From assembly GCA_023898505.1 (NCBI GenBank), contig CP060226.1:538152-570151 (forward strand): a stretch of DNA of 32,000 bases. The letters run 5' to 3'. Within the stretch, counting starts at the first letter, position 1; each line of letters opens with the position of its first letter. Below are positions 1 to 31,572 of the stretch, in pieces. The stretch is from Candidatus Peribacteria bacterium (GTDB lineage: Bacteria; Patescibacteriota; Gracilibacteria; BD1-5; UBA6164). The notes under the pieces are model-generated. The model saw only the letters and a list, made by a program, of their open reading frames with translations, made no database searches and had not been told where the DNA came from. The position numbers and the translations under genes are program-made.

Positions 1-1
1 T

Positions 2-610
2 GAAGAATGAAAACATATGCTTTGAAAAATTGTCAAACAAATAAATAGTGAATGAAAAATATTAATAAGTGACTTCGATTACTTTAAAGATATTTGTGAT
101 AACCATAAATATTTATACCGTAAAAATAGAGTAATAGATAGTTATGATTATACAGAAGAGTTTTGAACTCCTCTAGATGAAATAGTGAATTCTGCTATTA
201 TAAATAGTATATTAAGTGATTATAGTGAAACATTATACAATCTAGAACAAATTATAAGTTTATGAAAGACAAATGAAGACAACACTTTTTATTATCTAGA
301 TATATCTAATAAAGAAGAAAAAGAAAATATTGAATGAATATCTTTCAATGAAAATAATTGAGATATTTTCAAAAACTGAGAAAAGATTTGAAATATAAGT
401 CCTAGTCTTCAAGAATATAAATTTTTTAAATATTTATATGAAAACAAATGAAAATTAAAAACATATGAAGATATTTTTAAAGAATTTAAAGAATGAAAGA
501 CAGAAAAAACTGAAAGTGAATACTTAAGAGATATAAAAAATAGAATTAAACAAAAAGAAGTAAAGAGTTTAATTAAAAATACTCCAAAAATAGGATATTC
601 AATACCATAA
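2..610 (+). CDS. Hypothetical protein, 5'-partial; the C-terminus resembles an OmpR/PhoB-type winged-helix DNA-binding domain
   Basis: The frame starting at position 2 is open to TAA at 608-610 with many in-frame TGA and no TAA or TAG. The C-terminal sequence YLYENKGKLKTYEDIF...LRDIKNRIKQK...IKNTPKIGYSI resembles trans_reg_C. Confidence 0.6.
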
Positions 611-692
611 CTTTACCATAACTTTTTAAAACCCTTTTAAACTACATACCATTACTTTAAGGCTGACTTGAAAGCCAAGTTGAATAATATTA

Positions 693-727
693 AGACTGTA
701 ATTACAAAACAAAACAGTCTTTTTTTA
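693..727 (+). terminator. Rho-independent terminator
   Basis: The stem agactgt (693-699) pairs with acagtct (714-720) and is followed by a T-run at 721-727. Confidence 0.55.
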
Positions 728-756
728 TTCTGCATAAATTCAAAAGACAAAATAAA

Positions 757-1404
757 ATGTTTCTTAATAGTAAGAATTATCCTTGCAAGGAATTTAATAC
801 TTATTCTTATATGGATAAAGAAGCAAAACAAAAATACTTAGAAAAAAACTCTATATATTTTATTGAAAACACTTTATTTAATTCACTTTCTGTTGAAGAA
901 ATATCAGACTTTGTAAGTCCTTTACATAAAGAATACAAAATACTTGATAAAGAAATAAAAAGTGAAATAAAGAAAATTCAAAATAAATATAAAAACTTAG
1001 ATGAACTTGAAAAGTATTTTATAGAACTACTAGTTAAACTAGAAAATTGATGAGATAGATTAGAAGAGCTAGAAGATACATTAAAAGCCTTTAATACTCA
1101 TTTATATACTAGATTGCCTAGTAATAAATCATATAATAAAGAGTTTAAGAAAATCAATATAAATGATATCCCAATAACTCAAGTTATATGAAAATATATT
1201 AAACTTCCTGATAATTTAAACAGGAATATAAAATGTCCTTTACACAACGAAAGAACTTGAAGTTTTAAGATATATAAAGATACAAATAGCTTTTATTGTT
1301 TTTGATGTTGAAAAGGATGAGGTTCAATAAATTTCATTTCTGAAATAGAGAATATAAGCACAAAAGAAGCTTTTAAAAGATTTATAGAAATGTTTAATTT
1401 ATAG
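757..1404 (+). CDS. CHC2 zinc-finger (DnaG-type primase zinc-finger) protein
   Basis: With TGA read as Gly the C-terminus is IKCPLHNERTGSFKIYKDTNSFYCFGCGKGGGSINFI. Three TGA codons (1303, 1309, 1318) sit exactly at the Gly positions of the conserved CFGCG.GG motif. The stop is TAG at 1402-1404. Confidence 0.8.
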
Positions 1405-1462
1405 AAAAACATTATACAAAATAGTATTCTTGTGAATTTCTTTTCTTACAAGGAGTTTATTA

Positions 1463-2716
1463 GTGTGCCATTTTTATAAATTAACTTACTATTTAAATAA
1501 AAATAAAATGGAGTTTTCCAACATAGATAAACTAGAAAAAAAGATTTCTAGAGAAGATAAATTTTTAGATGACTTAGCTATAAAACTAGAAGATGTAAAA
1601 GAAACTTATATTTACATTAAAAGTTTAGCTAAATATTATTGGGTAGAAGCTAAATTATTCTTTTCTCCTAATGATGTTCAAAATAATACTTTACTATCAA
1701 ATAAAGAGCTAAAATTAGTAAGGCAATATTGATTAATATCTACTTATGATAATCTAGTATATAAAAAAGGATGAAAAGACTGATGTTATAACTTGCTTGA
1801 TGAAAATAAAATATTAAAACCATCTAATAATCCTATACTAGATAAGAATATAGATACATTAATATCCAATGTATGCTGATATAAACAAGAAAATATAGAT
1901 TATTTACATAAATCTATTTTATATAAATATATCAATTTAAACGACTTCACTATCCCCGCAGTTGTATTGTATGGCAAATGATGAAGTGGAAAATGAACTT
2001 TGATGTCATTATTAGAAACCATATTTTGTAAAGATAATGTATTATCTAATTTATGACAAAGAGACCTTTCTTGATTTGATGTGTATAGATGATGAAAACT
2101 AGTAGTAGAATTTGCAGAAATAGCAACTAATAACACTCATAGCGATATTTGAATATTAAACAAACTAAAAAATATAATATGAGCCTGAGAAATAACAATA
2201 AATGAAAAATGAGTGAGACAATACCAAATAGACAATATTGCTTGGTTTTTTATTTCATCTAATTCAAATAAGCCTTTACAACTAGATGATAAAGATAAGG
2301 GTAATAGAAGATTTACGATTATTAAATCTAATTCAGCTTTAGAAAATTGAAAAGAAATAAATGAAGCCGTAAGAGATAAAAAAATTGTATCAAATTATTT
2401 AGCTTGGCTTTATGAAAAATTTCCTGAAGTTTTAGAGTATAGGAACTTAATAGCCTTAGATAATGAAGATAAAAGAGATTTAGAAGAAAGAAGTCAAAGT
2501 GAAGCAAATCAATTCTGGGAATGGTTAGAGGATAATTTCCCTGACTATAAAGGTAAAAAAAGAAAAACAGATATAGAAAGTATGATAAATATGTTTTGTA
2601 TAGAAAACTGAGTAGAAGAAAAAGAGTTTTTAAAATATTTTTGGTCTCACTCAAAATATCCTAAAAAGAAAATCAGAATATGAGCTGATACTTACTATTG
2701 AGTAATAATAGAATAA
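1463..2716 (+). CDS. D5/P4-family primase-associated helicase (P-loop NTPase, SF3-like)
   Basis: A GTG start at 1463 lies 7 nt after AAGGAG; an alternative ATG is at 1508. The Walker A motif YGKGGSGKGT has TGA at 1979, 1982 and 1994 as Gly. Downstream, RRFTII resembles D5/P4 C-terminal domains. The stop is TAA at 2714-2716. Confidence 0.8.
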
Positions 2717-2722
2717 ATCTAT

Positions 2723-2782
2723 TAGAACTCTTAGAACATAGAACAATTAAACCTCATAGCTAAAGGATGTTCTAGTGTTCTA
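2723..2782. promoter_or_regulatory. Cluster of TAGAAC iterons (three direct and two inverted copies); candidate operator or origin
   Basis: TAGAAC occurs at 2723-2728, 2732-2737 and 2739-2744. GTTCTA occurs at 2769-2774 and 2777-2782. The cluster lies in the gap between the helicase gene and the HTH module. Confidence 0.5.
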
Positions 2783-2867
2783 TACGTTCCCTTCAAAAAT
2801 AAGGAGTAATTAACCTTATTATTATATATCAAAAACTTAGTACTAAGTCATAATTAATAAAAAATTT

Positions 2868-3011
2868 ATGACAAAAAAAGATTATTCAAACGAATTAAAA
2901 TACTTAGATAAATATGAAGTTGATGAAGAAAAAAAGATAAGATTTATAGAAAACTTATACAAATTAATAAATATAAATTTCAATAATTTCATAGAAAATA
3001 ATTGACAATAA
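2868..3011 (+). CDS. Small hypothetical protein (47 aa)
   Basis: An ATG at 2868 opens a frame that runs to TAA at 3009-3011 with one in-frame TGA. I recognise no domain. Confidence 0.3.
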
Positions 3012-3060
3012 TTATTCTAAGATTATATTATTTATAATTAACAACTAATATATAAGTAAT

Positions 3061-3264
3061 ATGAGAGTAGAAATAAACCTTTGGGAGCTAATGGGTAAGA
3101 ATAAAATGACAGCTTTAGAGTTGTCTTCTCTTACCTGAATTTCTCCTATTCAAATTTCAAAAATTAAAAATTGAAAAACAACAAAAATAGAACTACAAAC
3201 CATAGCAAAACTTTTAGAAGCTTTTGAATGTAGTCCTAATGAATTAATAAAAATAATTAAATAA
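3061..3264 (+). CDS. XRE/Cro-like helix-turn-helix transcriptional regulator (67 aa)
   Basis: The translation MRVEINLWELMGKNKMTALELSSLTGISPIQISKIKNGKTTKIELQTIAKLLEAFECSPNELIKII matches a short HTH_XRE protein. TGA falls at plausible Gly positions. Confidence 0.75.
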
Positions 3265-3276
3265 CTTTCAAAAAAT

Positions 3277-4941
3277 ATGAACAAAACAGCAGTAATATAT
3301 TGTAGAGTGTCTACAGTTAAACAAGAAAATAATTGAGATAGTTTAAACTCACAAGAAAAAGCTTGTAGAAACTATTGTAAAAATAATGATATACAAGTAC
3401 TTTGAGTTTTTAAAGAAGCCTTTAGCTGAAAAACTAAGAGTAGACCTGTTTTCACAGAAGCTATCAATAATGCTAAAGAAAATGATGTGAATTACTTTGT
3501 AATATTTGATATTGATAGATTTTCTAGAGAATGATATTGAGCTTATTCTGATTTAAAAGAAGACCTATACAATAATAAAATAGAGCTTAGAGATAGTAAA
3601 AACATTATTCAAGGTAACAACCTAGCAGTTAAAAATGATATTGTTGATATGGAACAATATAAATGGAATAGAGAAAATTCTAGTGAATATGCAGAGGTTA
3701 TGATTGCAACCCAAGCACAAATAGAATGAAAGAAGATTATCCAAAGAACAATACCAAGAGAAATAGAATTAGAGCAATTATGATACCAAGTTAGAGCCTC
3801 TAATTATTGATACGAAAACAAAAAAGAAAGAACTATACATTGAAAAGTAAGTATACAATCTAAACATCCTATAGAATGAGATTTTTTAATAGAAATGTTT
3901 GAAGCTAGAGCAAAATGATATTTAAGTGATAAAGAAATAGTAGAAAACTTAGTATTAAAATGATGTAAAAAAAGAAGCTGAAAAATTATGGATGTAAAAT
4001 ATATGCAAGAACTTATTAAAAAGCCTATATATGCAGGAATTATATGTACTAAATGGACTTGAAATAATCCTATTAGAACAGCTTATAAATGATTAGTAGA
4101 TATTAAGACTTGGAATAAAGCTAATAGATGAAAAATAGAAATTGTAGAAATAGATGATAAAGAAGTAAAAATAGAATTTAATAACTGAAAAGAAAAACAA
4201 ATTAATAAACCCATAATAGAAAGAAGAAAAAATTATAATTCAAATTATTTTTATTCTAAGGTTTTAAAGTGTCCTCATTGTTGAGGATACTTAACCTGAA
4301 ATGCTTCTAAATCTAGAGATGGTAGCATACACCCATATTATCAATGTAGATGAAAATGATGAGCTAAACATCCTAATTACAGCATAAGACAAAAGGAAGC
4401 ACATAAAACTATTAATGATATATTTAAAGAAATTAATATAAGAGATAATGCTTTCAATCTATATGAAGAATTATCTAAAAGAATTTTTAATGAAAAGAAA
4501 ACAGAGCTAAAAAATAATACTAAAAGTTATGATGAACAGCTTAAAGAATTAGATAAAAAAGAAAGTGAAATATTAGATAATATAGATAAAGTAATAAACT
4601 ATCCTCAAATACTAGAAAAGAAAAATAAAGAACTAGAAGAAATAAAATCACTTAAATATAAACTAGAGCTTAAAAGGAATGAAAAAGATAATACTTCAAG
4701 TTTAGATAAGTTTCTATATTATTCAAAACAAGTCATCACACACATAGATAAATTAGCTATACAAAAGGAAGAACCTGAAATAATCAATCTAGTTTTTGAT
4801 ATAGTTTATGATTGAAAAATAGAATATCAAAATATAAAAAGTCACACACAAGACTTTAGTAGTTTTTTCTCTCAACAAAGCCATCAAAAAAATCCTCAAA
4901 ACGAGGATTTAGTTGGTTTTCTTAAATGGCAGCCCCACTAG
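3277..4941 (+). CDS. Large serine recombinase (integrase)
   Basis: The N-terminus MNKTAVIYCRVSTVKQ is the resolvase catalytic motif. A zinc ribbon KCPHCGGYLTG...YYQCRGKGG follows. The frame is open from 3277 to TAG at 4939-4941 with about 23 in-frame TGA (hand count). Confidence 0.85.
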
Positions 4942-5001
4942 GAGTCGAACCTAGCACGCAGGATTTGGAGTCCTGAATTATAGCCGATTAACTATGGGGC
5001 T
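4927..5001 (-). tRNA. trnW: tRNA-Trp (anticodon CCA)
   Basis: I folded the cloverleaf by hand. The acceptor stem is AGCCCCA/TGGGGCT, the anticodon arm is CAGGA-CTCCAAA-TCCTG, the T-arm is CTAGG-TTCGACT-CCTAG, the discriminator is G, and CCA is encoded. Confidence 0.85.
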
Positions 5002-5002
5002 A

Positions 5003-5110
5003 AATCCCCTCCTTATGTTTCTCCCTTTTTCAAAGGGAGTACTCGAGATACGAGAGGGAGGGATTATTATTTATCCCCTCTCCCTACGGGGGAGAGGGTT
5101 AGGGTGAGGG
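5003..5110. repeat. Nested-hairpin repeat cluster, family B (CCCCTCTCCC...GGGAGAGGGG type)
   Basis: aatcccctcc pairs with ggagggatt. Internal hairpins are ctcccttttt caaagggag and cccctctccctacgggggagaggg, followed by ttagggtgaggg. The cluster is closely related to 14941-15045. Confidence 0.8.
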
Positions 5111-7140: not shown

Positions 7141-7287
7141 GGCGATCCCGAGTACTCGGGACAGGAATGCCTTTATGAATATACATCTGTTCCCAAAAAC
7201 TTGGGATTCCCAGATATATTTCTGTCATTCCGTACTTGATACGGAATCATTATTTATGATCCTGAAACCAGTTCAGGATGACCGTCA
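7141..7287. repeat. Hairpin-repeat cluster including a family A unit (7223-7282)
   Basis: The unit is tgtcattccgtacttgatacggaatca, a spacer, then gatcctgaaaccagttcaggatgac. Upstream hairpins are tcccgagtactcggga and ttcccaaaaacttggga. The cluster lies between the S1 gene and rpsB. Confidence 0.8.
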
Positions 7288-8669: not shown

Positions 8670-8724
8670 GGTATCCCTTTCTGTCCTCCGGACATCTTTC
8701 CCTTAAGCCTAAGGGCAAGAAATA
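8670..8724. repeat. Double-hairpin repeat, family C
   Basis: The sequence gtatccctttctgtcctccggacatctttcccttaagcctaagggcaagaaata nearly matches 27131-27186 and is related to 26559-26616. Confidence 0.8.
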
Positions 8725-11211: not shown

Positions 11212-13197
11212 TTACTTCTTCAATAAATTTACAAATGCCTCACTTGGGAGACTTACCCTACCAAACTGCTTCATCTTTTTCTTTCACTTTTTCTGTTTTT
11301 CAAGGAGCTTTCTCTTACGACTTATATCCCCTCCATAGAGTTTTGCGGTTACGTCTTTTCTGAGGGCCGATATATCTTCACGAGCTACGATCTTTCACCC
11401 AACTGCTGCCTGTATCTTGATCGCAAAGAGCGCTCTTGGCACCACTTCTTTCAGTTTTGCACAAACTTTTCCTCCAACATAGTGCGCCTGCTCACGATGA
11501 CAGATAAAACTAAGAGCATCGACTTTCTCATCAGCAATCAGGATATCAAGTTTCACCATATCATCTTCTTTAAACTTGATAAATTCATAGTTCATCGATG
11601 CATATCCAGAACTCAGTGATTTTATCTCATCATAAAAATCTCCTATGAGTTCATTCATCGGAAGTTCATACACAAGCATCACACGCTCACTATCAATAAA
11701 CTGCTGATTTTTAAAAATTCCGCGGCGTTCTTGAGATAACTGCATAAGTGTTCCGACATATTCTGTCGGAGTAATAACCTCTACTTTTGCGATTGGTTCT
11801 TCGATACTCTGGTACTTTTCTCTTGCCGGGAGATCTTCAGGATTTGAGACATATGCATAGGTAAATACAGAATGTCATCCCGTACTTGATACGGGATCAT
11901 TATTTGTACTTCTACTTTTTCATGATTCTGAATCCGCCGAGTTCTCGGGGCGCGCAAGTTCAGAATGACAGAGTTCAGGTTTAAACCTTGAATACTCACT
12001 CGTCTTATCTCCGATAAACTTAACACGATAGGTTACCTGTGGGGCGGTCATAATCACATCCATATCAAACTCTCTGAACAAACGTTCTTTGACAATATCG
12101 AGATGCAATAACCCAAGAAAACCACACCTATACCCATGTCCCAGTGCTGGAGAAACCGATGATTCAATACTGAGTGCCGAATCATTGAGCACGAGTTTTT
12201 CTACGGCATCTTTCAATTGTGGGTACTCAGAACTATCCATCGGAAATATACCCGCAAAGATAAATGGCTTTGCCTCACTAAATCCAGAGATAGGTTTCGC
12301 ATTTTCTGGTTTTTCTTTTGGTCAGAGTGTATTTGCTGGTTTCCAAAGAGTATCTCCAACTTTTGCGTGTTCCAAGGTTTTCAAACCCGTTACTACATAG
12401 CCTACCGAACCGTTTTCTATGATACCATTGGATGTATAGCGAGGAGCAAAGTACCCAACATCAAGCGCCTCTATCTTTTTCCCAGTATGAAGAAAGTGCA
12501 GCATATCCCCTTTACGAATCTCTCACTGAAATACCTTTACATACGACACTACTCCACGATATGAATCATACTGACTATCAAATACCAAAGCTTTCAGTTC
12601 ATCATCCTGACTATTCACTATTCACTGTTCACTCTTCTCTTTATTATATACCTTTGGCTTCCTCACTCTTTCAATCACCGCATCAAGTACCATATCTACA
12701 TTTTGACCCGTTTTTGCAGAAATTGGGATAATTTCATCTTCGCTACATCCAAGCAAATTGATAATTTCTTCACTGACTCTTGGGATATCTGCTGCTGGAA
12801 GATCAATCTTATTTAATACTGGGATGATATCCAGATCATTTTCGATCGCCATGTAGACATTAGAAAGCGTCTGTGCCTCAATCCCCTGCGTCGCATCTAC
12901 AACTAATAGAGCTCCTTCAACAGAAGCCAGGCTGCGAGACACTTCGTACTGAAAATCTACATGACCCGGAGTATCAATAATATTGAACTCATAGCCCTTC
13001 CATTGCATACGTACCGGTTGCAATTTAATCGTAATTCCGCGTTCCTGCTCAAGCTCCATCGTATCGAGCATCTGACCATTTTTCATCTCACGCTTATCCA
13101 GTGTTCCTGTGATTTCTAGGAACCTGTCAGCCAAAGTTGATTTCCCGTGATCTATGTGCGCAATAATACAAAAATTTCTAATCTTTCCGAGTTCCAT
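11212..13197 (-). CDS. lepA: Translation elongation factor 4 (LepA), with an in-frame repeat insertion
   Basis: The N-terminus [20 protein letters not shown] is a GTPase G1 motif, and the C-terminus [27 protein letters not shown] is a LepA hallmark. Five track fragments share one frame and are joined only by TGA. Confidence 0.92.
11873..11970. repeat. Family A double-hairpin element inside the lepA coding sequence
   Basis: The sequence tgtcatcccgtacttgatacgggatca...catgattctgaa[tccgccgagttctcggggcgcgcaag]ttcagaatgaca has the same architecture and orientation as 20079-20155. Confidence 0.85.
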
Positions 13198-13969: not shown

Positions 13970-15434
13970 ATCGAACCATCACCCAGACAGATCCCCCCAC
14001 CCCTGACGAAATCCCATATGAAGATGCGAGATCTCCTTTTGCAAAACCATGTGTAGTATTGTTTTGATAATTGTTAGCCCAATAATTCCAACGACTCACT
14101 AGAGAATCACAGTTACCCGCTCTACAGCCATGTGCATCTGAAACTCTATATACTGCTATCTCTTCTGTAGAATTAATACAATCTGAGGTACCCAAATCTA
14201 TACCCCCATATGTACTGTCTCTTCGATTTGTAATCAATGACTCTTTATAGGTAGCATAATAAAACCAATACTTTCTTAACCCATTATCATAGGTGTAGTA
14301 GGCTTCATTCTGAATGCATGTTTGTGGAGATATTCAGGTAGACTCAAAAGCACGCGATTGAATAAATCAATTTGGCACAAAAAATCCATAGTACTTCGTT
14401 GTATCTCCATCTATCCCCATAGATACTTCTGTAAACATCAGTTCAGAGGCATCAAGTGAATAATCATATCCTGGGTTTAGGTTCGTAGGAGTATCTCCAA
14501 TAACTGCATCGAAGAAAGTAGCACTGGGATAACTACCATCTGTTACTCATATGAGCATCCAACCGCCTCAGTCTGTAGTCATATCACAGTATACGGAAGT
14601 TTCTGTACTTCCATCTGGGTAAATAGTGTATATATCGGACCCTAAGCTTTTTCCCGCATATAATATATCAAGACAACTTGTAGGATTACTCATATGTGCA
14701 GTGATGCTCAGTACATACAACGTACTTCAAGTTCCCACTGTACTTTTCACGTCTGTGAAATTTGCCGTATAGGTGTCTGTAGTAAGGGCTATGTCAAGGT
14801 AACCTGAGTTTGTTACCGTAGTTACCTCTTGTATCGGAGCATTGGTTCAGGACTGGGTGAGGATACCAAGCTTATGTCCATTTACCGTTGAGTATCTGTT
14901 TGTGTAGTCTGTCGCTGCATGGGCTTGTGGGATGAAAGCTCCCCCTAGCCATGATATCTCCTCACCCCAGCCCTCTCCTTTGAGAGGAGAGGGAGTTATA
15001 GTTCCCCCTTCTCCCACAAGGGAGAGGGGGCTAGGGGGTGAGGGTATTTGTGTAAGAAGGTTTTCCTCTTCTTCAAGAAATGCCATCAATTGGAAGTATT
15101 TCTTATCACTCGTGAGGTAGTAGGAAAAGTAGGTGGAGTCTTTTGGGTCTTTTCCTCCTTTGGTAAAGTCTATCGTTTCAAGAACTCCTTCTCCAGCATA
15201 GCCTTGGTAGGCAATAGTCGTTCCATTAGACTTTACTTCTACGTAGTCATCTGGAAGAGGGAGGTCTTTTTCTGTTCTATAGAGTTCAAGTCCATCATGG
15301 AGTGCCGTAAGTTGAGAGATACGATTCGTATCTCTCGTTCAAGCGAGGTAGGAGCTATATGAGACAAAGCCTACGGTAGAGAGGATACCGAGGATTACGA
15401 CGACTACGATAAGTTCGACTAATGTAAACGCCAG
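13968..15434 (-). CDS. Type IV pilin-like protein with a C-terminal fibrinogen-related domain (FReD); the start codon is uncertain
   Basis: The N-terminus AFTLVELIVVVVILGILSTVGFV is a class III signal/pilin helix. The C-terminal sequence SCLDILYAGKSLGSDIYTIYPDGSTETSVYCDMTTDGGGWMLI is the fibrinogen C-domain signature, with TGA at 14578-14580 as a Gly in DGGGW. No ATG, GTG or TTG lies upstream in frame, so I placed the 5' end at CTG 15432-15434. Confidence 0.75.
14941..15045. repeat. Family B nested palindromic element inside the pilin-like coding sequence
   Basis: ccccctagcc (14941-14950) pairs with ggctaggggg (15030-15039). Inner hairpins are ccctctcctttgagaggagaggg and cccccttctcccacaagggagaggggg. 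The element is related to the intergenic copy at 5073-5110. Confidence 0.85.
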
Positions 15435-15440
15435 CTTGTC

Positions 15441-15500
15441 TGGTCCCGAATGCTCGGGAAGGGTGAATCCTTTACTCCTTCCGTTCGTAGGAAAGGATGT
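15441..15500. repeat. Double-hairpin repeat in the 5' region of the pilin-like gene
   Basis: The hairpins are gtcccgaatgctcgggaa and tcctttactccttccgttcgtaggaaagga. Confidence 0.6.
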
Positions 15501-19651: not shown

Positions 19652-20713
19652 CTATGTACCTTTTCCCTTTTCCATTCTTCCCTTTCGTCTTTTCTCTTTT
19701 ATCTTTCATCTTTCATCTATTTCCAATTCTTTCACTACCTCTATCCACTCTTCAATTCCCAATTCTTCTCCCCTCACAGTATCCGAAATACTCAGTTTTT
19801 CAAATATCACTAGTATTTTCCCCTTGTCATATCCACTATTTAATAAGTTCTTCAGTAGCTTTTTTCTCGGTTCACGAAAACCCTGTTTAATAATTTCTAA
19901 AAATACTCCATCATCGATATCTCTATAATTATCATGAGTTATAAAGTGAAGAACGATAGATTCTACCTTTGGCGCAGGATAAAAGTGCTCTTTCGGCACA
20001 ACACAAACTTCCCTCACAAAACACTTTTTTGCGATAAAAAGTCAGAGGACTGAAGAGCGTATTTTTTTATCACTTCTGTGTCATCCCGTACTTGATACGG
20101 GATGATAATTTGTACCTTTACATTTTCATGATTCTGAAACAAGTTCAGAATGACAAATAGATCTCTGTCAGCTTAAAATTTTCCTCCCCACATCCTCCTG
20201 CATCATAATCGCCATCTCTTGAGGAGATGTAGAAACTTCATAGAGAAAGTGCCTAAGAATCGGAGAAGTGATATAATACGGGATATTTGCGATGACTGAG
20301 TAATTAATTTGTCATTCTGAACTTGATTCAGAATCATTAATAGTATCTTTACTCTTTCATAGATTCCTGCCTCCGCAGGAATGACATACGTGAAATATCG
20401 GTTCATACTTAAGGACATCGATATGCTCGATGTTAACATTCAGTCCTTCAATTTGCAATTCTCCTGTCTGTATTCTCTGCTCAAGGATGGTGATCATATC
20501 TGGATCAAGCTCCACGAGAGTCAAAGATTGTGGTATTTGCGTCAGGAGTTTTTCGGTGAGTGCCCCATACCCTGGACCTACTTCCACGATATTTTTTCCA
20601 TCTACCTCAATAGCTGTTGCAATATTTTCTAGACTTCCTTCATCTACAAGAAAATTTTGTCCCAAAGATTTTTTTGCGTGGAGTTTATATTTTTGTATAC
20701 TTTGTGGAAGCAT
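19652..20713 (-). CDS. rsmA: 16S rRNA (adenine1518/1519-N6)-dimethyltransferase RsmA/KsgA, with two in-frame repeat insertions
   Basis: Supporting motifs are KKSLGQNFLVD, VEVGPGYGALTEKL, ANIPYYITSPIL and FYPAPKVESIVL. I chose the ATG at 20711-20713. The frame reads through several TGA to TAG at 19652-19654. Confidence 0.88.
20079..20155. repeat. Family A double-hairpin element inside the rsmA coding sequence
   Basis: The sequence tgtcatcccgtacttgatacgggatgataatttgtacctttacattttcatgattctgaaacaagttcagaatgaca is near-identical in its arms to the lepA copy. Confidence 0.85.
20310..20386. repeat. Family A variant double-hairpin element inside the rsmA coding sequence
   Basis: The sequence is tgtcattctgaacttgattcagaatcattaatagtatctttactctttcatagattcctgcctccgcaggaatgaca. 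Confidence 0.8.
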
Positions 20714-26558: not shown

Positions 26559-26616
26559 GTTCCCTTTTCCTCGCGATATTGGGAGGTCTTCCCCTTACTT
26601 CTAAGGGAAAGAACGG
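26559..26616. repeat. Family C double-hairpin repeat upstream of rplK
   Basis: The sequence is agttcccttttcctcgcgatattgggaggtcttccccttacttctaagggaaagaacgg. Confidence 0.7.
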
Positions 26617-27130: not shown

Positions 27131-27186
27131 TATCCCTTTCTGGTCTCTCGACCATCTTTCCCTTACCTCTAAGGGAAAGAGTAATG
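27131..27186. repeat. Family C double-hairpin repeat
   Basis: The sequence tatccctttctggtctctcgaccatctttcccttacctctaagggaaagagtaatg is a near copy of 8670-8724. Confidence 0.8.
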
Positions 27187-27416: not shown

Positions 27417-28367
27417 TTACAAGATTAAATTCTCATTTGTAAACCATTGATTTCAAATTTTCTTCGCTATAATCTTTCCTCTGTTTACCAATTGTCTTCC
27501 ATAATCTTCTTTAAACCCTTTTTGGACCATCAGGTCAGCTACTGGTACAAGCTCATAAGATTTATAATGAGATAAAATCAAATAATCCAAACTTTCAAAT
27601 AAATTTCACGATATAGTTTTCTCCAAACTACTGAAATCTCATTTATTTACCCAGTCATCTTTTGGTATATTTAGTGGAAAATAGTCATATAATCCTATTT
27701 CTCATTTTTCCAATCAAGTAAAATATCTTTCTTTTTCTGATTCTACTCACTTAATAATTATATTTGGATATCAATGACAAAGTAATACGTAGTTTATAAG
27801 TACCCTTCATACTCTTCCGTTCCCATCCTCAAATGGATGTATAGATTCAAATAATACATGCAGTTTAGATAAAGAAGAAACTATATTGTCTTCTGTAAAG
27901 TCAAGAATATTTACATATGATATGAAATAATCTAAGCAAAGCAAAACCATACTTCATACAGGAGGTTTAATTCTTACTTTGTTAATCATAATATCTCATA
28001 GCCTATAGTCTCACGGTTTTTTCGATTCTTGTCATCTAAACATCAGAGAATGAATGGTTTTTATATCTGAGTGTTTTAACTCAAACTTTTCCTTGTTTAT
28101 ATATTTTTGGTATCCAAACTCATAGACTAATGAGGCAGAATCAAAATACCCTAGAATTTCCTCTGAGTTTTTAGAATATTTTTTATTTGAAATAGTATTT
28201 TGTATTTCTTTTTTATTTGCAAAGTACCCCTCTATCATAATAGAGTTCCTCGTTTCCTCTTCAAATAGGTACAACCATTCTTTATTCTTTACATTTGGCT
28301 TTGTAAGTGATCAAAACTTCGATAATAATTCTAATCTCCACTTAATAAGTTTTCAAATATTTTTCAT
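27417..28367 (-). CDS. Fic-domain protein (AMPylase family), class II with an N-terminal inhibitory motif
   Basis: The Fic motif HPFEDGNGRVGR lies at 27804-27839, with TGA as Gly. SIMIEG at 28227-28244 fits (S/T)xxxE(G/N). The frame runs from ATG at 28365-28367 to TAA at 27417-27419. Confidence 0.85.
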
Positions 28368-28379
28368 AATTCTAATTTT

Positions 28380-28595
28380 TTATAGATTAAACTCTGTCAT
28401 TTTTCAGTCAACTAATTCATAACATATGTAATTTTCGGGATCTCAGCTATAACCTAAGTGTTCAAATTCTTTTGTTTCTCTTAATCTTTGAAATGCATCC
28501 TCAGGGTTTTCTCATTCTATAATTGCTAATCAACTAGTAGAATCTAAATTCTCAAACTTTTCAGCATAATAAGTTAAAAATATATATTTTTTCAT
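28380..28595 (-). CDS. Small hypothetical protein (71 aa)
   Basis: The frame is open from ATG to TAA with four in-frame TGA, and it ends 12 nt upstream of the Fic start. I recognise no domain. Confidence 0.5.
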
Positions 28596-28621
28596 GGTAT
28601 TTTAGTTAAAATTTAAAGTTT

Positions 28622-29050
28622 TTATAAATAATTGCCAACCCAACTGGCATAATCTTCTATAAGTTGGTGATTTTCTGATTCTTTATCAATAGCCTTAAGC
28701 CGACTTAGTCAAATAGTAAACTTTCTTCTATCTCCTTTTCTTCTTACTTTCACAAATAATTCACTCTCATAATATAAGAGCTCATCAAACTCGATAAAAC
28801 TGAAAGTATCAGTATATGATGGCCTTGTTTTCTTTAACTTCTCATATTCTTCTGGATCTCAATATCAAAAAACATATTTTTCTTCCCAATCAAAGTCATC
28901 TCTTCAAGTAAGTAAACAAGGTTTTTCTATGTTATTAGTTATGTATTTTAGATACTTTTGTAAATTCCCTTTATTTACTCAAATATCTTTTTCCTCTTGC
29001 TTTCACAATATTTTTTTAAATCTTTCTATTTCTTTTTCAAATTCATCCAT
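28622..29050 (-). CDS. Hypothetical protein (142 aa)
   Basis: The translation, verified codon by codon, is MDEFEKEIERFKK...ASWVGNYL. An AGGAGG lies upstream of the start. I recognise no domain. Confidence 0.6.
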
Positions 29051-29077
29051 AATAATTCTAGTTAAAAAATAAAATAA

Positions 29078-31243
29078 TTACCTCCTTATAATCTTATACC
29101 TTCAAGATTTCTCTAACTTGTTATAAAAAGTCTGCCTTTTCTTGAATAACTTATCAAAATAATCTATATTTTTATCATGATAGTCATATATAACTTGTTT
29201 TTTCTTAGTCCTTTGGATTCTTCATATATATTGAATCAATTTTCACTCAAAAGAAAAAGGATAAACTAAAAACAAACAATCTAGCTCTCATATATCAAGT
29301 CACTCTCAAATTAACTGTCATGTAGATATAAGAACCTGAAAGTTTCATGATTTTATTTGCTGAAATTTTAGTTTTCTTTTTCAAATACCATCATCTCAAG
29401 TCAGAGTAATTGTTTCATGCTGATTTTTTAAATACATATTTATAAGCATAACATGGTCTTTTCTCTCAGTAAGAACAATTATTTTACGATTTTTTCAGAT
29501 TTCTTTGATTAAATCTTCTACAATCATAGTATTTCTATCAGTATCGTATACGAGAACTTTTGAAACCATTTCATAATTATCTATTTTATAATCAAATGGA
29601 ACAAAAAGGTTTGTTTCTTTGATATTTATATGATTTTTGATTGAACTTACTTTTTTAAAATCTCTATCAATAGTAGATATTATATCTCAAATATAACAAT
29701 ATATTAATTTTTCATCATTGTTTTTTCTCTTTGGAGTAGCTGTAAAACCATAAATATACTTAGAATTGAAGTTAACGACTGCTTCACGAAAGGTTTTCGC
29801 AGGTATATGATGGCATTCATCTATTATAATAAGTCCAAATTTATTCTTTATTTCACTCAAATCATCTTTTTTTACTATAGTCTGCATCATAGCTATTGTA
29901 ATTCAAGACTTTCAAACCTTATATTTTCAATTTCAAACCTGTCATATATCTTTTTTTATAATTCAAAGGAATGACTCTATTCTCTCAATCCATTGGTCAT
30001 ATAATTCTCTACGATGTACAATAATAAGAGCAGGTTGTTTTTTCCTTGCTATAAATTCAAGTCACATCACTGTTTTACCAGCTCAAGGAGGTGCTACAAT
30101 TATTCATGAATCCTCTTGTTCTATTTCTAAAAGTACTTTTTCTTGGTAATCATATAAATCAATGCTTGAACTATATTCTATTTCTTCAAATGTATTCCTA
30201 TAATCCTTGATAGTATATGTGGTATTATTTTTCTTTAAAAAGTCTTCTAACTGCTTCAAAAATCATATAGGAATAGCAATGTCTAAATCACTTTCATCAA
30301 TAACTTTGAAATACTTTTCAGTTTTATAGGTACTTTTTCATAATCTTTTCTTTACTAAATAGTCAGAATTAAAAAAATTTAAACTATCTTTTAAAAATTT
30401 TATAAGATTCGGTGTAAGATTTTCTCTTTTTATGATGATCTGGTTACGAATAATAATTTCAAATCAATTTATATTGTTACTTATTATAGGTGTTTCTATA
30501 TTTTTATCATCACATACTAAGACAGAATAAATCTCATCTAATTCTTTAACTGAAATTTTCTCTATGTTCTCTAAAAATTCCCACTGATTTTCTATAACAG
30601 AAGCATCTAATACATTTATAAAACAAGAATTATCTTGTTTTAGTGATTCTCACTGAAAAGGTAGAGCAATAAGATTACCAAATCATTTTCAGGTTAGATA
30701 ATCTTGATTTGGGAATAATCTATCAAAACTAAATTCTTTTTCAAAAATACTTACATTTAAAGATTTTTTAAGTAATTCAAAAAGTATTTTTCTACTTTTT
30801 ATGGCAGGATATTTACTTTCAAAGAATATCCATACATGTCATCCATTTCAAGAACGACTTCTTTCTATATAAGTAGGTATATCATAAACTTCACAAACCT
30901 TAATGAGATTCTTGCATTCCTCTAACCAATTTTTCTTATCAAAATCAGCAACTATAAAATTTGAGTTATTATTAGCTAAAAGTGGATAGATTCATAATGT
31001 TTTACCTCAAAGTAAATGACTGTATATTGCTTTATCTGTAAGAGCTAATAAAGTTTTATTCTCAAAATTACTAATATTTCATCATTTAGCTCTATGAGCT
31101 GAAAATTCATTCCAGTCAAAATCATAAGCTGGCATATATCCACTGTTTCAGTTTTTCTCCCAACGAATAGCATATATATCCTCTCTTCATAGAAAAAGAG
31201 ATCTGTATAGTTTAATTTTCTCTTTGGATATAAAATCAGGCAT
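29078..31243 (-). CDS. Fusion protein with an N-terminal AEP/prim-pol-like domain and a C-terminal SF2 DEAH-box helicase (721 aa)
   Basis: AEP-like motifs are IVADFD, SRSGNGGHVWIFF and FDRLFP...GNLIALPF. Helicase motifs are IIVAPPGAGKT, IIIDECHH, FTATP, ISTGQLIGEGLDIGELDCLFL and QYIGRIQR. Many of the motif Gly residues are TGA codons. Confidence 0.85.
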
Positions 31244-31572
31244 AGAAAAATATAGTTAAAAAACTGTCACGATTATACTATCTTATTAAAACGTGACAAA
31301 CTTATTTTTTAGATTTTTCACAAAAAAATAACCAACTTTTTTATATAATTTTGTTGGAAATACGCTACAAAATAAAGTCCTACTACATGCAAATGAGGTA
31401 GGTTTTTTATTTTTTAAGTTATTATTACGGAGAATCGAATGGAGAAAAGGAACTGAAACGAAAGTATGAAATATCACGATGAGTAAGAGTGATGTGAATC
31501 ACTGGAGTCAGTTATCTTTTGGATGCCCGACTTGCGGCAATTCTCCTTCTGGAGTAACAAAAGTAATCATCC

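What the first reader, a model, noticed from the sequence alone, without database searches (positions are those of the whole stretch)
20079..20386. Two more in-frame hairpin-element insertions within a single rsmA gene
RsmA motifs flank both elements. DVLKYEP [IFHVCHSCGGRNLGKSKDTINDSESSSEGQI] NYSVIANIPYYITSPIL spans 20310-20386. GRKILSG [QRSICHSELVSESGKCKGTNYHPVSSTGGHRS] DKKIRSSVLGLF spans 20079-20155. Both insertions keep the frame and contain only TGA as would-be stops. The 20079 copy has the same strand, the same frame and nearly the same encoded peptide (CHSEL...SESGK...PVSSTGGH) as the lepA copy. That pattern suggests selection for one tolerated orientation and frame, or a directed insertion mechanism.
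Basis: partly seen in the sequence, partly recalled or inferred. Interest (0 to 1): 0.85.

Follow-up and report, generated by a model that had tools for sequence, protein, structure and literature searches.

The report
Translated REP hairpin repeats inside rsmA
Two 77-base copies of a widespread bacterial hairpin repeat sit in frame inside the essential 16S rRNA methyltransferase gene rsmA of a Gracilibacteria genome that reads TGA as glycine. They are most likely translated into floppy surface loops, as already known from Rickettsia but seen here in a new lineage.

Summary
Window 20079-20155 and 20310-20386 each hold a 77-nt element made of two inverted hairpin modules: a TGTC tag, an 8-bp stem starting with AT, and a 4-5 nt loop. 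Both lie in frame in an otherwise intact rsmA on the minus strand, and TGA is their only would-be stop. TGA encodes glycine here (code 25), and the host is a Candidatus Gracilibacteria bacterium. A third copy in lepA uses the same frame, and a fourth is intergenic.

The modules meet every published defining feature of the CGTC/TGTC-tagged REP superfamily, which includes Rickettsia RPE-4 and RPE-6. Identical 25-28-mers occur in many phyla.

Across 231 kb from TGA-recoded contigs, 13 of 15 independent intragenic events use the phase TGT-CAT...TGA-CA. All 11 intragenic dimers measure 2 mod 3, and no copy was seen breaking a gene. That phase is the most hydrophilic one, and it is closed by TGA in standard-code hosts.

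In 121 Gracilibacteria RsmA orthologs the same two loops carry inserts from unrelated hairpin families, scattered over the tree. An AlphaFold model places them as low-confidence loop-outs on a confident KsgA core.

Verdict: a new member of a known kind, of moderate interest. Selection for tolerated loops and phase is favoured, and I found no evidence for targeted insertion.

The parts
19652..20713 (-). rsmA (ksgA) gene, 353 codons under code 25 including seven in-frame TGA (Gly) codons. ATG at 20711-20713, TAG stop at 19652-19654.
   Evidence: Translation. Pfam PF00398 E=4.5e-35. 120 Gracilibacteria orthologs. KsgA PDB matches.
20310..20386 (-). Element D, a 77-nt inverted dimer of TGTC-tagged hairpins at RsmA site 1, between DVLKYEPIF and NYSVIANIPYY. 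It is read as CHSCGGRNLGKSKDTINDSESSSEGQ.
20310..20337 (+). Hairpin module of element D: TGTC tag, stem ATTCTGAA/TTCAGAAT, loop CTTGA. The identical 28-mer occurs in contigs assigned to several other phyla.
20360..20386 (-). Second hairpin module of element D: stem ATTCCTGC/GCAGGAAT, 4-nt loop, GACA tag on the + strand.
20079..20155 (-). Element C, a 77-nt inverted dimer at RsmA site 2, after DVGRKILSGQRSI and before HRSDKKIRSSVL. It is read as CHSELVSESGKCKGTNYHPVSSTGGH.
20079..20106 (+). Hairpin module of element C: stem (TC)ATCCCGTA/TACGGGAT(GA), loop CTTGA.
20128..20155 (-). Hairpin module of element C: stem ATTCTGAA/TTCAGAAT, loop CTTGT as read from the tag. It is 94% complementary to the module at 20310-20337.
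   Evidence: (I1).
11873..11970 (-). Element B in lepA. It belongs to the same subfamily and phase as C, and is 98 nt long because it is 21 nt longer than C. The extra length comes from a nested GC-rich hairpin at about 11933-11955 in the loop of one module.
   Evidence: The closest LepA ortholog, P0121 (L144), has an empty site.
11212..13197 (-). lepA (EF4) gene, host of element B. Its TGA codons align with conserved Gly in the solved Aquifex LepA sequence.
7223..7283 (-). Element A, a short (61 nt) intergenic dimer between the S1-like gene and rpsB. It is absent from the corresponding spacer of the closest relative (L144).

Best explanation
The two features are copies of a non-autonomous repeated DNA element. 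Each is an inverted dimer of CGTC/TGTC-tagged REP hairpins, similar in layout to a REPIN.

**What I infer happened.** The elements landed in two surface loops of RsmA in a Gracilibacteria genome. Because this organism decodes TGA as glycine, the phase TGT-CAT...TGA-CA is stop-free. In that phase each element is co-translated with the host protein as a roughly 26-aa hydrophilic, probably disordered loop that leaves the methyltransferase core intact.

**Why only these copies are seen.** Insertions are probably not frame-aware. Copies persist only if three conditions hold:
- they fall in permissive loops;
- they keep the reading frame;
- they are read in the hydrophilic phase.

Copies elsewhere are removed by selection or survive only between genes.

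**What is shown and what is inferred.**
- Shown: repeat family membership, the genetic code, phase and length regularities, the loop location, recurrence across orthologs, and presence/absence between relatives.
- Inferred: that the elements are translated, that selection rather than targeting sets the phase, and how the DNA is mobilised. No transposase is known for this superfamily, and none was found here.
For: **Family identity.**
- All four window copies match TGTCATYCYGWACTTGATWCRGRATSAT at one or both ends in inverted orientation, 6 hits against 0 expected.
- The consensus of 301 modules is T/C-GTC + AT + N6 + a 4-5 nt loop + N6' + AT + C(C/T)A. This matches the published CGTC-REP definition (PMC3733652).
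- Partner hairpins located only by their ATGAC tag are paired in 51 of 67 cases, against about 10% at control sites, and they use at least 25 different stems (Fisher P = 2e-30).

**Genetic code.** Three of three TGA codons in LepA align with conserved Gly in 2ywe. TGA makes up 29% of Gly codons in the window.

**Mobility.**
- The closest LepA ortholog (85% identical over the alignment) has an empty site, and its S1-rpsB spacer lacks copy A.
- Identical modules occur in Sulfurovum, Chloroflexota, Flavobacterium and CPR groups.

**Translation and selection.**
- 13 of 15 intragenic events are in phase 0, P = 3e-5.
- All 11 intragenic dimers (10 independent) are 2 mod 3. The seven intergenic dimers listed measure 61, 75, 84, 84, 98, 107 and 141 nt.
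- None of the intragenic copies contains TAA or TAG in the phase used.
- Phase 0 has a mean GRAVY of -0.95, against +0.11 and -0.28.
- Standard-code hosts also carry intragenic copies, but their right tag is never read as TGA-CA.

**Permissive loops.**
- The AF2 model of P0001, which carries dimers at both sites, has a core pLDDT above 90. Its inserts score 41-58 and lie between β4 and β5 and between two helices. The model matches KsgA structures with a target-normalised TM-score (TMt) of 0.78-0.87.
- Of 121 orthologs, 75 have the basal 4-aa loop at site 1 and 56 the basal 5-aa loop at site 2. The rest carry inserts from several hairpin families scattered over the tree.
Against: - No proteomic or transcript evidence shows that the inserts are translated.
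- A 77-nt element cannot preserve the frame by itself. Each copy has 7-10 extra flanking bases, or replaces host codons, and this is unexplained.
- The hairpins in coding copies are still perfect. The orthologous uvrB copy in two genomes is more conserved than its flanks (72/77 identical against about 78%, P = 2e-4) and carries a compensatory stem change. This hints at constraint on the DNA or RNA structure, or at turnover, beyond simple tolerance.
- In two of the three window sites a host-type TGACA coincides with the element's right end. Microhomology-guided integration is therefore not excluded.
- The survey covers only 231 kb from about a dozen MAGs. It requires long ORFs, so badly broken genes could be missed.
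Confidence: 0.78

Rival explanations
1. Directed insertion. The mobilising machinery targets a sequence or structure, for example a host TGACA or the end of an earlier element. Under this view targeting, not selection, produces the constant phase and the recurrent sites.
For: - In lepA the empty site of the closest relative reads AAT TGA CAG exactly where the element's TGACA end lies in the window.
- At rsmA site 2 the motif TGACAGAGA lies upstream and TGACACAGA lies at the right junction.
- In L014 uvrB, extra TGACA motifs follow the element.
- Recurrence at the same two RsmA loops.
Against: - The flanks of 11 intragenic dimers show no consensus.
- Host TGACA pentamers in window genes are evenly distributed over the phases, 9:6:8. 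Targeting them would not give 13 of 15 in phase 0.
- The same loops are occupied by unrelated hairpin families with different ends. This argues for permissiveness rather than a single recognition site.
- The Gly of the 'GQ' at site 2 is GGA or GGT, not TGA, in some orthologs.
Confidence: 0.1
2. Exapted structural element. The hairpins inside the coding sequence are kept because they act at the mRNA or DNA level, with the peptide a tolerated by-product. Possible roles include translational pausing between folding units, mRNA stability or RNase sites, or effects on supercoiling or replication.
For: - Stems are perfect in all three coding copies.
- Stems vary between copies but stay complementary.
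- The uvrB orthologous copy is more conserved than its flanking codons and has a compensatory double change.
- REPs are proposed to act as RNA elements in other bacteria (PMC3733652).
Against: - Many orthologs, including the closest LepA relative, lack any insert at these sites and are otherwise conserved.
- Different lineages carry unrelated hairpins or none.
- Arms of a hairpin can co-vary without selection, through templated correction of quasi-palindromes (established mutational mechanism, my own knowledge) or through recent replacement.
- There is no Rfam match at gathering score.
Confidence: 0.1
3. The inserts are not translated. They are removed from the mRNA in an intron-like way, or bypassed by the ribosome as with T4 gene 60 or the byp elements of Magnusiomyces mitochondria.
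For: They are compact, strongly folding hairpin elements inside essential genes. No direct evidence of translation is available.
Against: - Removal or bypass would not require a constant phase, a length class that preserves the frame, or the absence of TAA/TAG. All three hold for intragenic copies, and the length class does not hold for intergenic copies.
- No known intron or ribozyme family is detected.
- No matched take-off and landing codons are evident.
Confidence: 0.02
4. These are ordinary lineage-specific protein loops or an assembly artefact, not mobile DNA.
For: The two RsmA loops vary in length across bacteria generally. B. subtilis KsgA, for example, has a longer segment at site 1.
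Against: - The same nucleotide element recurs in unrelated genes and in a spacer within the window.
- It recurs in queA, argS, thrS, uvrB and a methyltransferase gene of other MAGs.
- It recurs in more than 120 independent metagenome contigs.
Confidence: 0.01

Closest known systems
CGTC-tagged REP superfamily (Di Nocera, De Gregorio & Rocco 2013, BMC Genomics 14:522; PMC3733652)
   Same: - An unpaired terminal tag CGTC, which the paper says is often TGTC.
- 8-9 bp stems beginning with AT, 4-5 nt loops and a short CCA-like tail.
- Frequent inverted dimers with 20-100 bp spacers, often heterodimers.
- Presence in several phyla, including Sulfurovum.
- Some copies lie inside genes, including uvrB, encoding 20-30 aa.
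- No associated transposase.

All of these were seen here.
   Different: - The family has not been described in CPR/Gracilibacteria.
- Here the tag's TGA is itself translated as Gly, so both ends are read in the same phase.
- In the recoded contigs about half of the modules found are intragenic.
- The same loops are hit repeatedly across a whole phylum-level lineage.
Rickettsia palindromic elements, RPE (Ogata et al. 2000 Science 290:347; 2002 Genome Res 12:808; summarised in PMC10969869). RPE-4 and RPE-6 are CGTC REPs according to PMC3733652.
   Same: Palindromic repeats inserted in frame in unrelated housekeeping genes of a small-genome, host-dependent bacterium. They are translated as part of the protein and judged compatible with the fold.
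   Different: - RPE-1 type elements are about 150 bp and use the standard code.
- The host is a different phylum.
- Recurrent colonisation of homologous loops by different families was not part of that description.
REPINs mobilised by RAYT transposases (Bertels & Rainey 2011, PMC3116915; listed, not read)
   Same: The layout is two inverted REP hairpins separated by a spacer, a non-autonomous unit with no target-site duplication.
   Different: REPINs are GTAG-type and are associated with a RAYT (HUH-Y1) gene. No such gene is linked to CGTC REPs, and a crude HUH-Y1 motif screen of 1008 ORFs around the elements found no candidate.
Translational bypass 'byp' elements of Magnusiomyces mitochondria and coding palindromes of Nematomorpha mitochondria (the former from my own knowledge; the latter PMC6649704, seen only as a title and abstract)
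   Same: Hairpin-forming mobile or duplicative sequences embedded in essential coding genes of a reduced genome with a variant genetic code.
   Different: Byp elements are skipped by the ribosome and need no open frame. Here the constraints on phase, length and stop codons indicate translation.

Membership tests
CGTC/TGTC-tagged REP superfamily | [quoted passage not shown] | tested here: met
   The base before GTC is T in 88% and C in 7% of 301 modules. Six of the eight module ends in the window were detected with TGTC and one (the right end of copy A) with GGTC; the eighth was read by eye.
CGTC/TGTC-tagged REP superfamily | Stem of 8-9 bp with complementary A and T in the first and second positions | tested here: met
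   All window modules have 8-10 bp stems starting with AT. For partners located only by their ATGAC tag, 51 of 67 are paired at 7 or more of 8 positions.
CGTC/TGTC-tagged REP superfamily | Loop of 4 or 5 nt falling into a few major sequence types | tested here: met
   CTTGA accounts for 61% of loops. GAAA, GAAG, GCAG and CTTGT account for most of the rest.
CGTC/TGTC-tagged REP superfamily | Short unpaired tail, consensus CCA | tested here: met
   After the stem: C 96%, then C 41% or T 41%, then A 56%. In the window the tail is CAT or GAT.
CGTC/TGTC-tagged REP superfamily | Frequently organised as inverted dimers with 20-100 bp spacers | tested here: met
   All four window copies are dimers. 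67 of 120 metagenome hits have a partner tag, and dimers measure 58-189 nt. I could not check which of the paper's HH/TT labels applies, because the figures are not held.
CGTC/TGTC-tagged REP superfamily | High copy number within one genome | not testable with these tools
   Only 32 kb of this genome is available. That stretch holds 4 copies, about 1 per 8 kb.
REPIN/RAYT system | GTAG-type REP and a linked RAYT (HUH-Y1) transposase gene flanked by the repeats | tested here: not met
   The tag is TGTC, not GTAG. There is no transposase in the window. A crude HUH...Y motif screen of 1008 ORFs near the elements gave no credible candidate. That screen is weak, so absence is not proven.
Classical MITE | Terminal inverted repeats plus a target-site duplication, derived from a DDE insertion sequence | tested here: inconclusive
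   Terminal inverted repeats are present, as TG...CA ends that are themselves hairpins. No target-site duplication is visible at 11 intragenic or about 20 other junctions. No parent insertion sequence was identified.
Rickettsia palindromic elements (functional class: translated intragenic palindromes) | In-frame insertion in unrelated conserved genes, with the host ORF intact and the insert at the protein surface | tested here: met
   Hosts include rsmA (twice), lepA, queA, argS, thrS, uvrB and a methyltransferase gene. The inserts are low-pLDDT loop-outs. Translation itself is not demonstrated.
Genetic code 25 (host context) | TGA decoded as Gly | tested here: met
   Table 25 restores long ORFs. 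Three of three TGA codons in LepA fall at conserved Gly. Best hits are Candidatus Gracilibacteria. No tRNA-Gly(UCA) lies in the window.

The most novel reading that the evidence does not exclude
Reassigning TGA to glycine opened the one reading phase in which both arms of a CGTC-type REP dimer encode hydrophilic, loop-compatible peptide. In standard-code hosts that phase is closed by the tag's own TGA. On this reading, recoding let these repeats colonise permissive loops of essential genes throughout Gracilibacteria at a density not seen elsewhere. The coding copies would also be held under structural (DNA or RNA hairpin) constraint rather than merely tolerated. A corollary follows. Gracilibacteria genomes can be small (1.34 Mb and 1,243 genes in the one closed genome read, PMC6851277). 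They would therefore be the best place to identify the still unknown activity that mobilises CGTC REPs.
Probability: 0.2. Interest if true: 0.75.

Novelty: new member of a known kind. Interest (0 to 1): 0.5.

Why it matters
- **Extends a known phenomenon.** Translated selfish palindromes in essential genes are best known from Rickettsia. This finding extends them to the candidate phyla radiation. It also suggests a concrete interaction between a mobile repeat and a genetic-code change: the repeat's conserved TGACA end is read as Gly-Gln/His.
- **Practical warnings.** Gracilibacteria proteins are often 10-25% longer than their orthologs because of such inserts. This affects gene calling under the wrong code, alignment-based phylogenomics, and structure prediction.
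- **An open question becomes approachable.** CGTC REPs have no known transposase. Small genomes with recent presence/absence differences offer a narrow search space for the mobilising activity.
- **A natural map of permissive sites.** Recurrent colonisation of the same two RsmA loops and the LepA loops marks insertion-tolerant positions in universally conserved translation factors.

Tried and rejected
I therefore modelled the ortholog P0001, which carries dimers at both sites.
2. A profile of the phase-0 peptide, doubled to reach the 40-aa minimum, returned only 10 short ORFs (37-80 aa) at E up to 1 from the 5.8-billion-protein database. It gave no view of host-protein diversity.
3. The metagenome scan for the CCGTA-stem hairpin was meant to recover relatives of this genome. 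It returned mostly standard-code contigs of 23-60% GC. That showed the module is cross-phylum but added few recoded loci.
4. My automatic 'genic' calls by longest ORF misfired in several places. Copy A was placed in a spurious antisense ORF. Copy D was masked by a spurious plus-strand ORF. Many standard-code calls turned out to be 5'-UTR copies upstream of pilin, enolase or ruvC starts. All were corrected by eye.
5. I considered the 'GQ' before site 2 as a fossil TGA-CA tag. I rejected it as evidence because its Gly is GGA or GGT in L141 and L143.
6. TGACA targeting as the cause of the phase bias is rejected on the phase distribution of host TGACA.
7. The search for a RAYT-like gene was only a crude motif screen.
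8. Rfam gave only sub-threshold matches to hairpin-like families (MIR7504, FtrB), which I take as chance.
9. Four further Gracilibacteria loci (L145-L148) contained no TGTC modules.
10. Literature searches found no report of these repeats in Gracilibacteria or other CPR bacteria.
Full report
**1. What is in the sequence**

The window uses TGA as a sense codon. Translation with table 11 fragments the genes, while table 25 restores long ORFs. In LepA all three TGA codons that fall in alignable conserved positions match Gly in the solved Aquifex LepA sequence: IFDGEV, AKGGKV and NQKEGKKRMKQ. TGA is the second most used Gly codon, 198 of 686. The best protein hits are Candidatus Gracilibacteria.

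On the minus strand, 20713 to 19652 encodes RsmA/KsgA. The evidence is PF00398 at E = 4.5e-35, matched in two stretches, solved KsgA structures and 120 orthologs. Every in-frame would-be stop is TGA, including the one after ...EIDER. The true ORF is therefore 353 codons and ends at TAG 19652-19654.

**2. Anatomy of the elements**

Each of 20079-20155 and 20310-20386 is 77 nt long and runs from TGTCAT to ATGACA. Each end is itself a hairpin module: a TGTC tag, an 8-bp stem beginning with AT, a 4-5 nt loop, and the return arm followed by a C/G-A-T tail. The two modules are inverted relative to each other.

A 28-nt degenerate pattern for one module hits the window six times on both strands, against 0.00 expected. 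As single strands the elements fold into two hairpins with z-scores of -5 to -6.

Two further copies exist:
- 11873-11970 in lepA. It is 98 nt, 21 nt longer than copy C, because a GC-rich hairpin is nested in one loop. It has the same phase and the peptide [33 protein letters not shown].
- 7223-7283, a 61-nt copy between the S1-like gene and rpsB.

The stems differ between copies (CCCGTA, TCTGAA, TCCTGC, CCTGAA) but always remain complementary.

**3. What family this is**

A scan of one genome per species found the same 28-mer in many groups: Sulfurovum, Sulfurimonas, Chloroflexota/Dehalococcoidia, Ca. Lucifugimonas, Flavobacterium, Shapirobacteria, Berkelbacteria and several Gracilibacteria. 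It was often present as an inverted dimer with a 20-110 nt spacer and no visible target-site duplication.

I ran an unbiased test on partner modules located only by an ATGAC tag. Of 67 partners, 51 were paired at 7 or more of 8 stem positions, against about 10% at control ATGAC sites, and they used at least 25 distinct stem sequences (Fisher P = 2e-30).

The consensus of 301 modules is T(88%)/C(7%)-GTC, AT, N6, a loop (CTTGA 61%, otherwise mostly 4-nt GAAA, GAAG or GCAG), N6', AT, then C(96%)-(C/T)-A. This is feature for feature the CGTC-tagged REP superfamily of Di Nocera et al. 2013. That paper describes:
- a CGTC tag that is changed to TGTC in many repeats;
- 8-9 bp stems starting with AT, 4-5 nt loops and CCA tails;
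- mostly inverted dimers with 20-100 bp spacers, often heterodimers;
- occurrence in five phyla, including Sulfurovum;
- inclusion of Rickettsia RPE-4 and RPE-6 and Neisseria dRS3;
- some copies inside genes, notably uvrB and other repair genes, encoding 20-30 aa;
- no associated transposase.

Rfam has no family for these elements.

**4. Are the rsmA copies insertions?**

Typical Gracilibacteria RsmA is about 270 aa. Alignment of 121 orthologs shows two variable positions:
- Site 1, between DVLKYxPxF and YSVIANIPYY, has a basal 4-aa loop in 75 sequences.
- Site 2, between DVGDKIL and KxKSSVLSLF, has a basal 5-aa loop in 56 sequences.

The window protein has 32 and 38 residues at these positions. 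The flanking catalytic motifs are intact: GPGYGALT, ELD, DVLK and NIPYY.

For lepA the closest ortholog (P0121, 85% identical over the alignment) has an empty site. It reads PEV-FELNGQT-FTY where the window has PEL-[33 aa]-SV-FTY. The same relative also lacks copy A in its S1-rpsB spacer. The elements therefore differ in presence between related genomes.

The insert is never exactly the 77-nt unit. The net gains are 84 nt at site 1 and 87 or 99 nt at site 2. In lepA seven host codons are replaced. I cannot explain the extra bases.

**5. Phase, length and orientation**

Under code 25, 3-4 of the 6 frames of these elements are stop-free, so openness by itself is weak evidence. The regularities are not weak.

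I examined 231 kb from 19 TGA-recoded loci and counted independent intragenic events.
- Thirteen are in phase 0, read as TGT-CAT at the left tag and TGA-CA at the right. They are: window rsmA (two), window lepA, rsmA of P0001 (two), queA, a methyltransferase gene, argS, thrS, uvrB (shared by two MAGs), and three single modules.
- Only two are in other phases. P = 3e-5 against a null of 1/3.

All 11 intragenic dimers have lengths of 2 mod 3 (77, 77, 98, 77, 83, 77, 107, 77, 77, 77, 77 nt). The seven intergenic dimers listed in the recoded loci are 61, 75, 84, 84, 98, 107 and 141 nt. The 77-nt intragenic dimers also share one spacer polarity: the purine-rich ATGAAAAGGTAAAAAT-like strand is the coding strand.

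Intergenic copies lie in short gaps between ORF ends, and I saw no copy breaking a gene. My method requires long ORFs, however, so it would miss heavily decayed genes.

**6. Selection or targeting?**

The evidence favours selection on the encoded peptide.
- Phase 0 encodes Ser/Gly/Glu/Lys/Asn-rich peptide with mean GRAVY -0.95. Phase 1 encodes VILNLFQNH...IIIPYQV-type peptide at +0.11, and phase 2 scores -0.28.
- Flanks of the 11 dimers show no consensus.
- Host TGACA pentamers are spread evenly over the phases, 9:6:8. Even a TGACA-directed mechanism would therefore not give the observed bias.
- Standard-code contigs also contain real intragenic copies: two in one peptidase-like ORF in L125, and others in L054 and L134. 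Their right tag is read as AAT-GAC-A or ATG-ACA and never as TGA-CA.

The doubly hydrophilic reading is thus available only where TGA is sense. That last step is inference.

**7. Recurrence at the same loops**

Other Gracilibacteria carry quite different hairpins at the same two RsmA positions:
- L141 (P0001) has two TGTC-tagged dimers of a CHCESNEAIQ subfamily, 77 and 83 nt, in phase 0.
- L142 (P0078) has GC-rich CCCCTCTCC...GGAGAGGG hairpins at both sites.
- L143 (P0003) has yet another type.

On a neighbour-joining tree built from the core columns, insert-bearing and insert-free sequences are interleaved, and neighbours carry different families. LepA shows the same behaviour at two positions.

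An AlphaFold2 model of P0001 (mean pLDDT 85, pTM 0.82) has a confident core. Both inserts score pLDDT 41-58. They lie between strand E92-97 and strand E142-147, and between helix 177-187 and helix 229-237. The model superposes on KsgA structures with a target-normalised TM-score (TMt) of 0.78-0.87. The window's own protein could not be submitted. These are permissive loops, and their repeated colonisation by unrelated elements argues for a selective filter rather than a single recognition site.

**8. Points that do not fit simple tolerance**

- All coding copies still have perfect stems.
- The orthologous uvrB copy in L014 and L018 differs at 5 of 77 positions, while flanking uvrB DNA differs at about 22% (P = 2e-4). 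Two of the five differences form a compensatory pair, CCGGA/TCCGG to CCGTA/TACGG.
- In two of the three window sites the element's TGACA end coincides with a host-type TGACA.

These points could reflect structural constraint, templated correction of quasi-palindromes, recent replacement, or microhomology-assisted integration. I cannot decide between these.

**9. Comparison and verdict**

By every defining feature I could test, the elements are members of the CGTC/TGTC REP superfamily. They behave like Rickettsia palindromic elements, which are in-frame and presumably translated inserts in housekeeping genes. They are not GTAG-type REPINs: no RAYT-like gene was found, though my screen was crude.

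I found no report of such repeats in Gracilibacteria or other CPR bacteria. Its added value lies in three things:
- the interplay with TGA recoding;
- the phylum-wide recurrence at homologous loops;
- the opportunity that small genomes give for finding the unknown mobilising activity.

Noticed in passing
window 1-5001: A low-GC block (21-26% against 33-44% elsewhere) encodes a DnaG-type zinc-ribbon protein (694-1401), a DUF5906/VapE-like NTPase (1388-2713) and a large serine recombinase (3265-4938). It ends at tRNA-Trp(CCA) at 4927-5001. This looks like an integrated mobile element or prophage remnant at a tRNA gene.
   Followed up: partly
window 5076-5098 and 14971-14993 (also about 15000-15090): A second hairpin family is GC-rich: CCCCTCTCC...GGAGAGGG. 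One copy lies just downstream of tsf. One or two lie inside the ORF at 13971-15500, a protein with a fibrinogen-C-like domain, where they encode PSPLSLVGEGG and PSPLKGEGWG. The same family occupies both RsmA loops in another Gracilibacteria contig, L142.
   Followed up: partly
window 8693-8720, 26585-26612, 27153-27180: A third small hairpin family, TCTTTCCCTTA-N4-TAAGGGAAAGA, has three intergenic copies. They lie near tRNA-His and on both sides of rplK. They may be terminators or another REP type.
   Followed up: no
window 11933-11955: A 23-nt GC-rich mini-hairpin (TCCGCCGAGTTCTCGGGGCGCGC) is nested in the loop of one module of the lepA element. It adds exactly 21 nt (7 codons, ARPENSA-like), so it is an in-frame insertion within an insertion.
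   Followed up: partly
window 19652-19708: The apparent rsmA stop after ...EIDER is TGA. Under code 25 the protein gains an 18-aa Lys/Arg-rich tail (GKIKEKRRKGRMEKGKGT) that is absent from most of the orthologs aligned.
   Followed up: partly
window 27420-31255: This stretch holds a Fic-domain protein (27420-28379), a small unknown protein, and a 721-aa AEP-TOTE primase-helicase fusion (29081-31255), which is a conflict-system protein. It sits in a second low-GC stretch.
   Followed up: no
L021-L140 (metagenome contigs) and L001-L020: Exact 25-28-nt hairpin modules are shared by contigs of 23-60% GC that are assigned to several bacterial phyla. Such identity across phyla suggests horizontal spread or a very constrained recognition structure.
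   Followed up: partly
L014 about 1031-1107 and downstream; L018 133-209: Two Gracilibacteria MAGs share a dimer at the same uvrB position. The copy is more conserved than its flanks and has a compensatory stem change. L014 also has extra TGACA motifs just after the element and a CHCEYNEAI-type element just past the uvrB stop.
   Followed up: partly
L043, L065, L084, L088 (standard-code contigs): In several standard-code contigs the dimer sits immediately upstream of the start of prepilin-type (FTLIELLVVVLIIGILAA) genes. This suggests a recurrent 5'-UTR location there.
   Followed up: no
alignment A4 columns about 190-230 (LepA): A second LepA hot spot, after ...RIxEPKVY, carries hairpin-type inserts in many Gracilibacteria orthologs (PLLTGEG, PPLTGEG, SPLEEKEQ and others). 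At that position the window protein is only about 4 residues longer than its closest relative.
   Followed up: no
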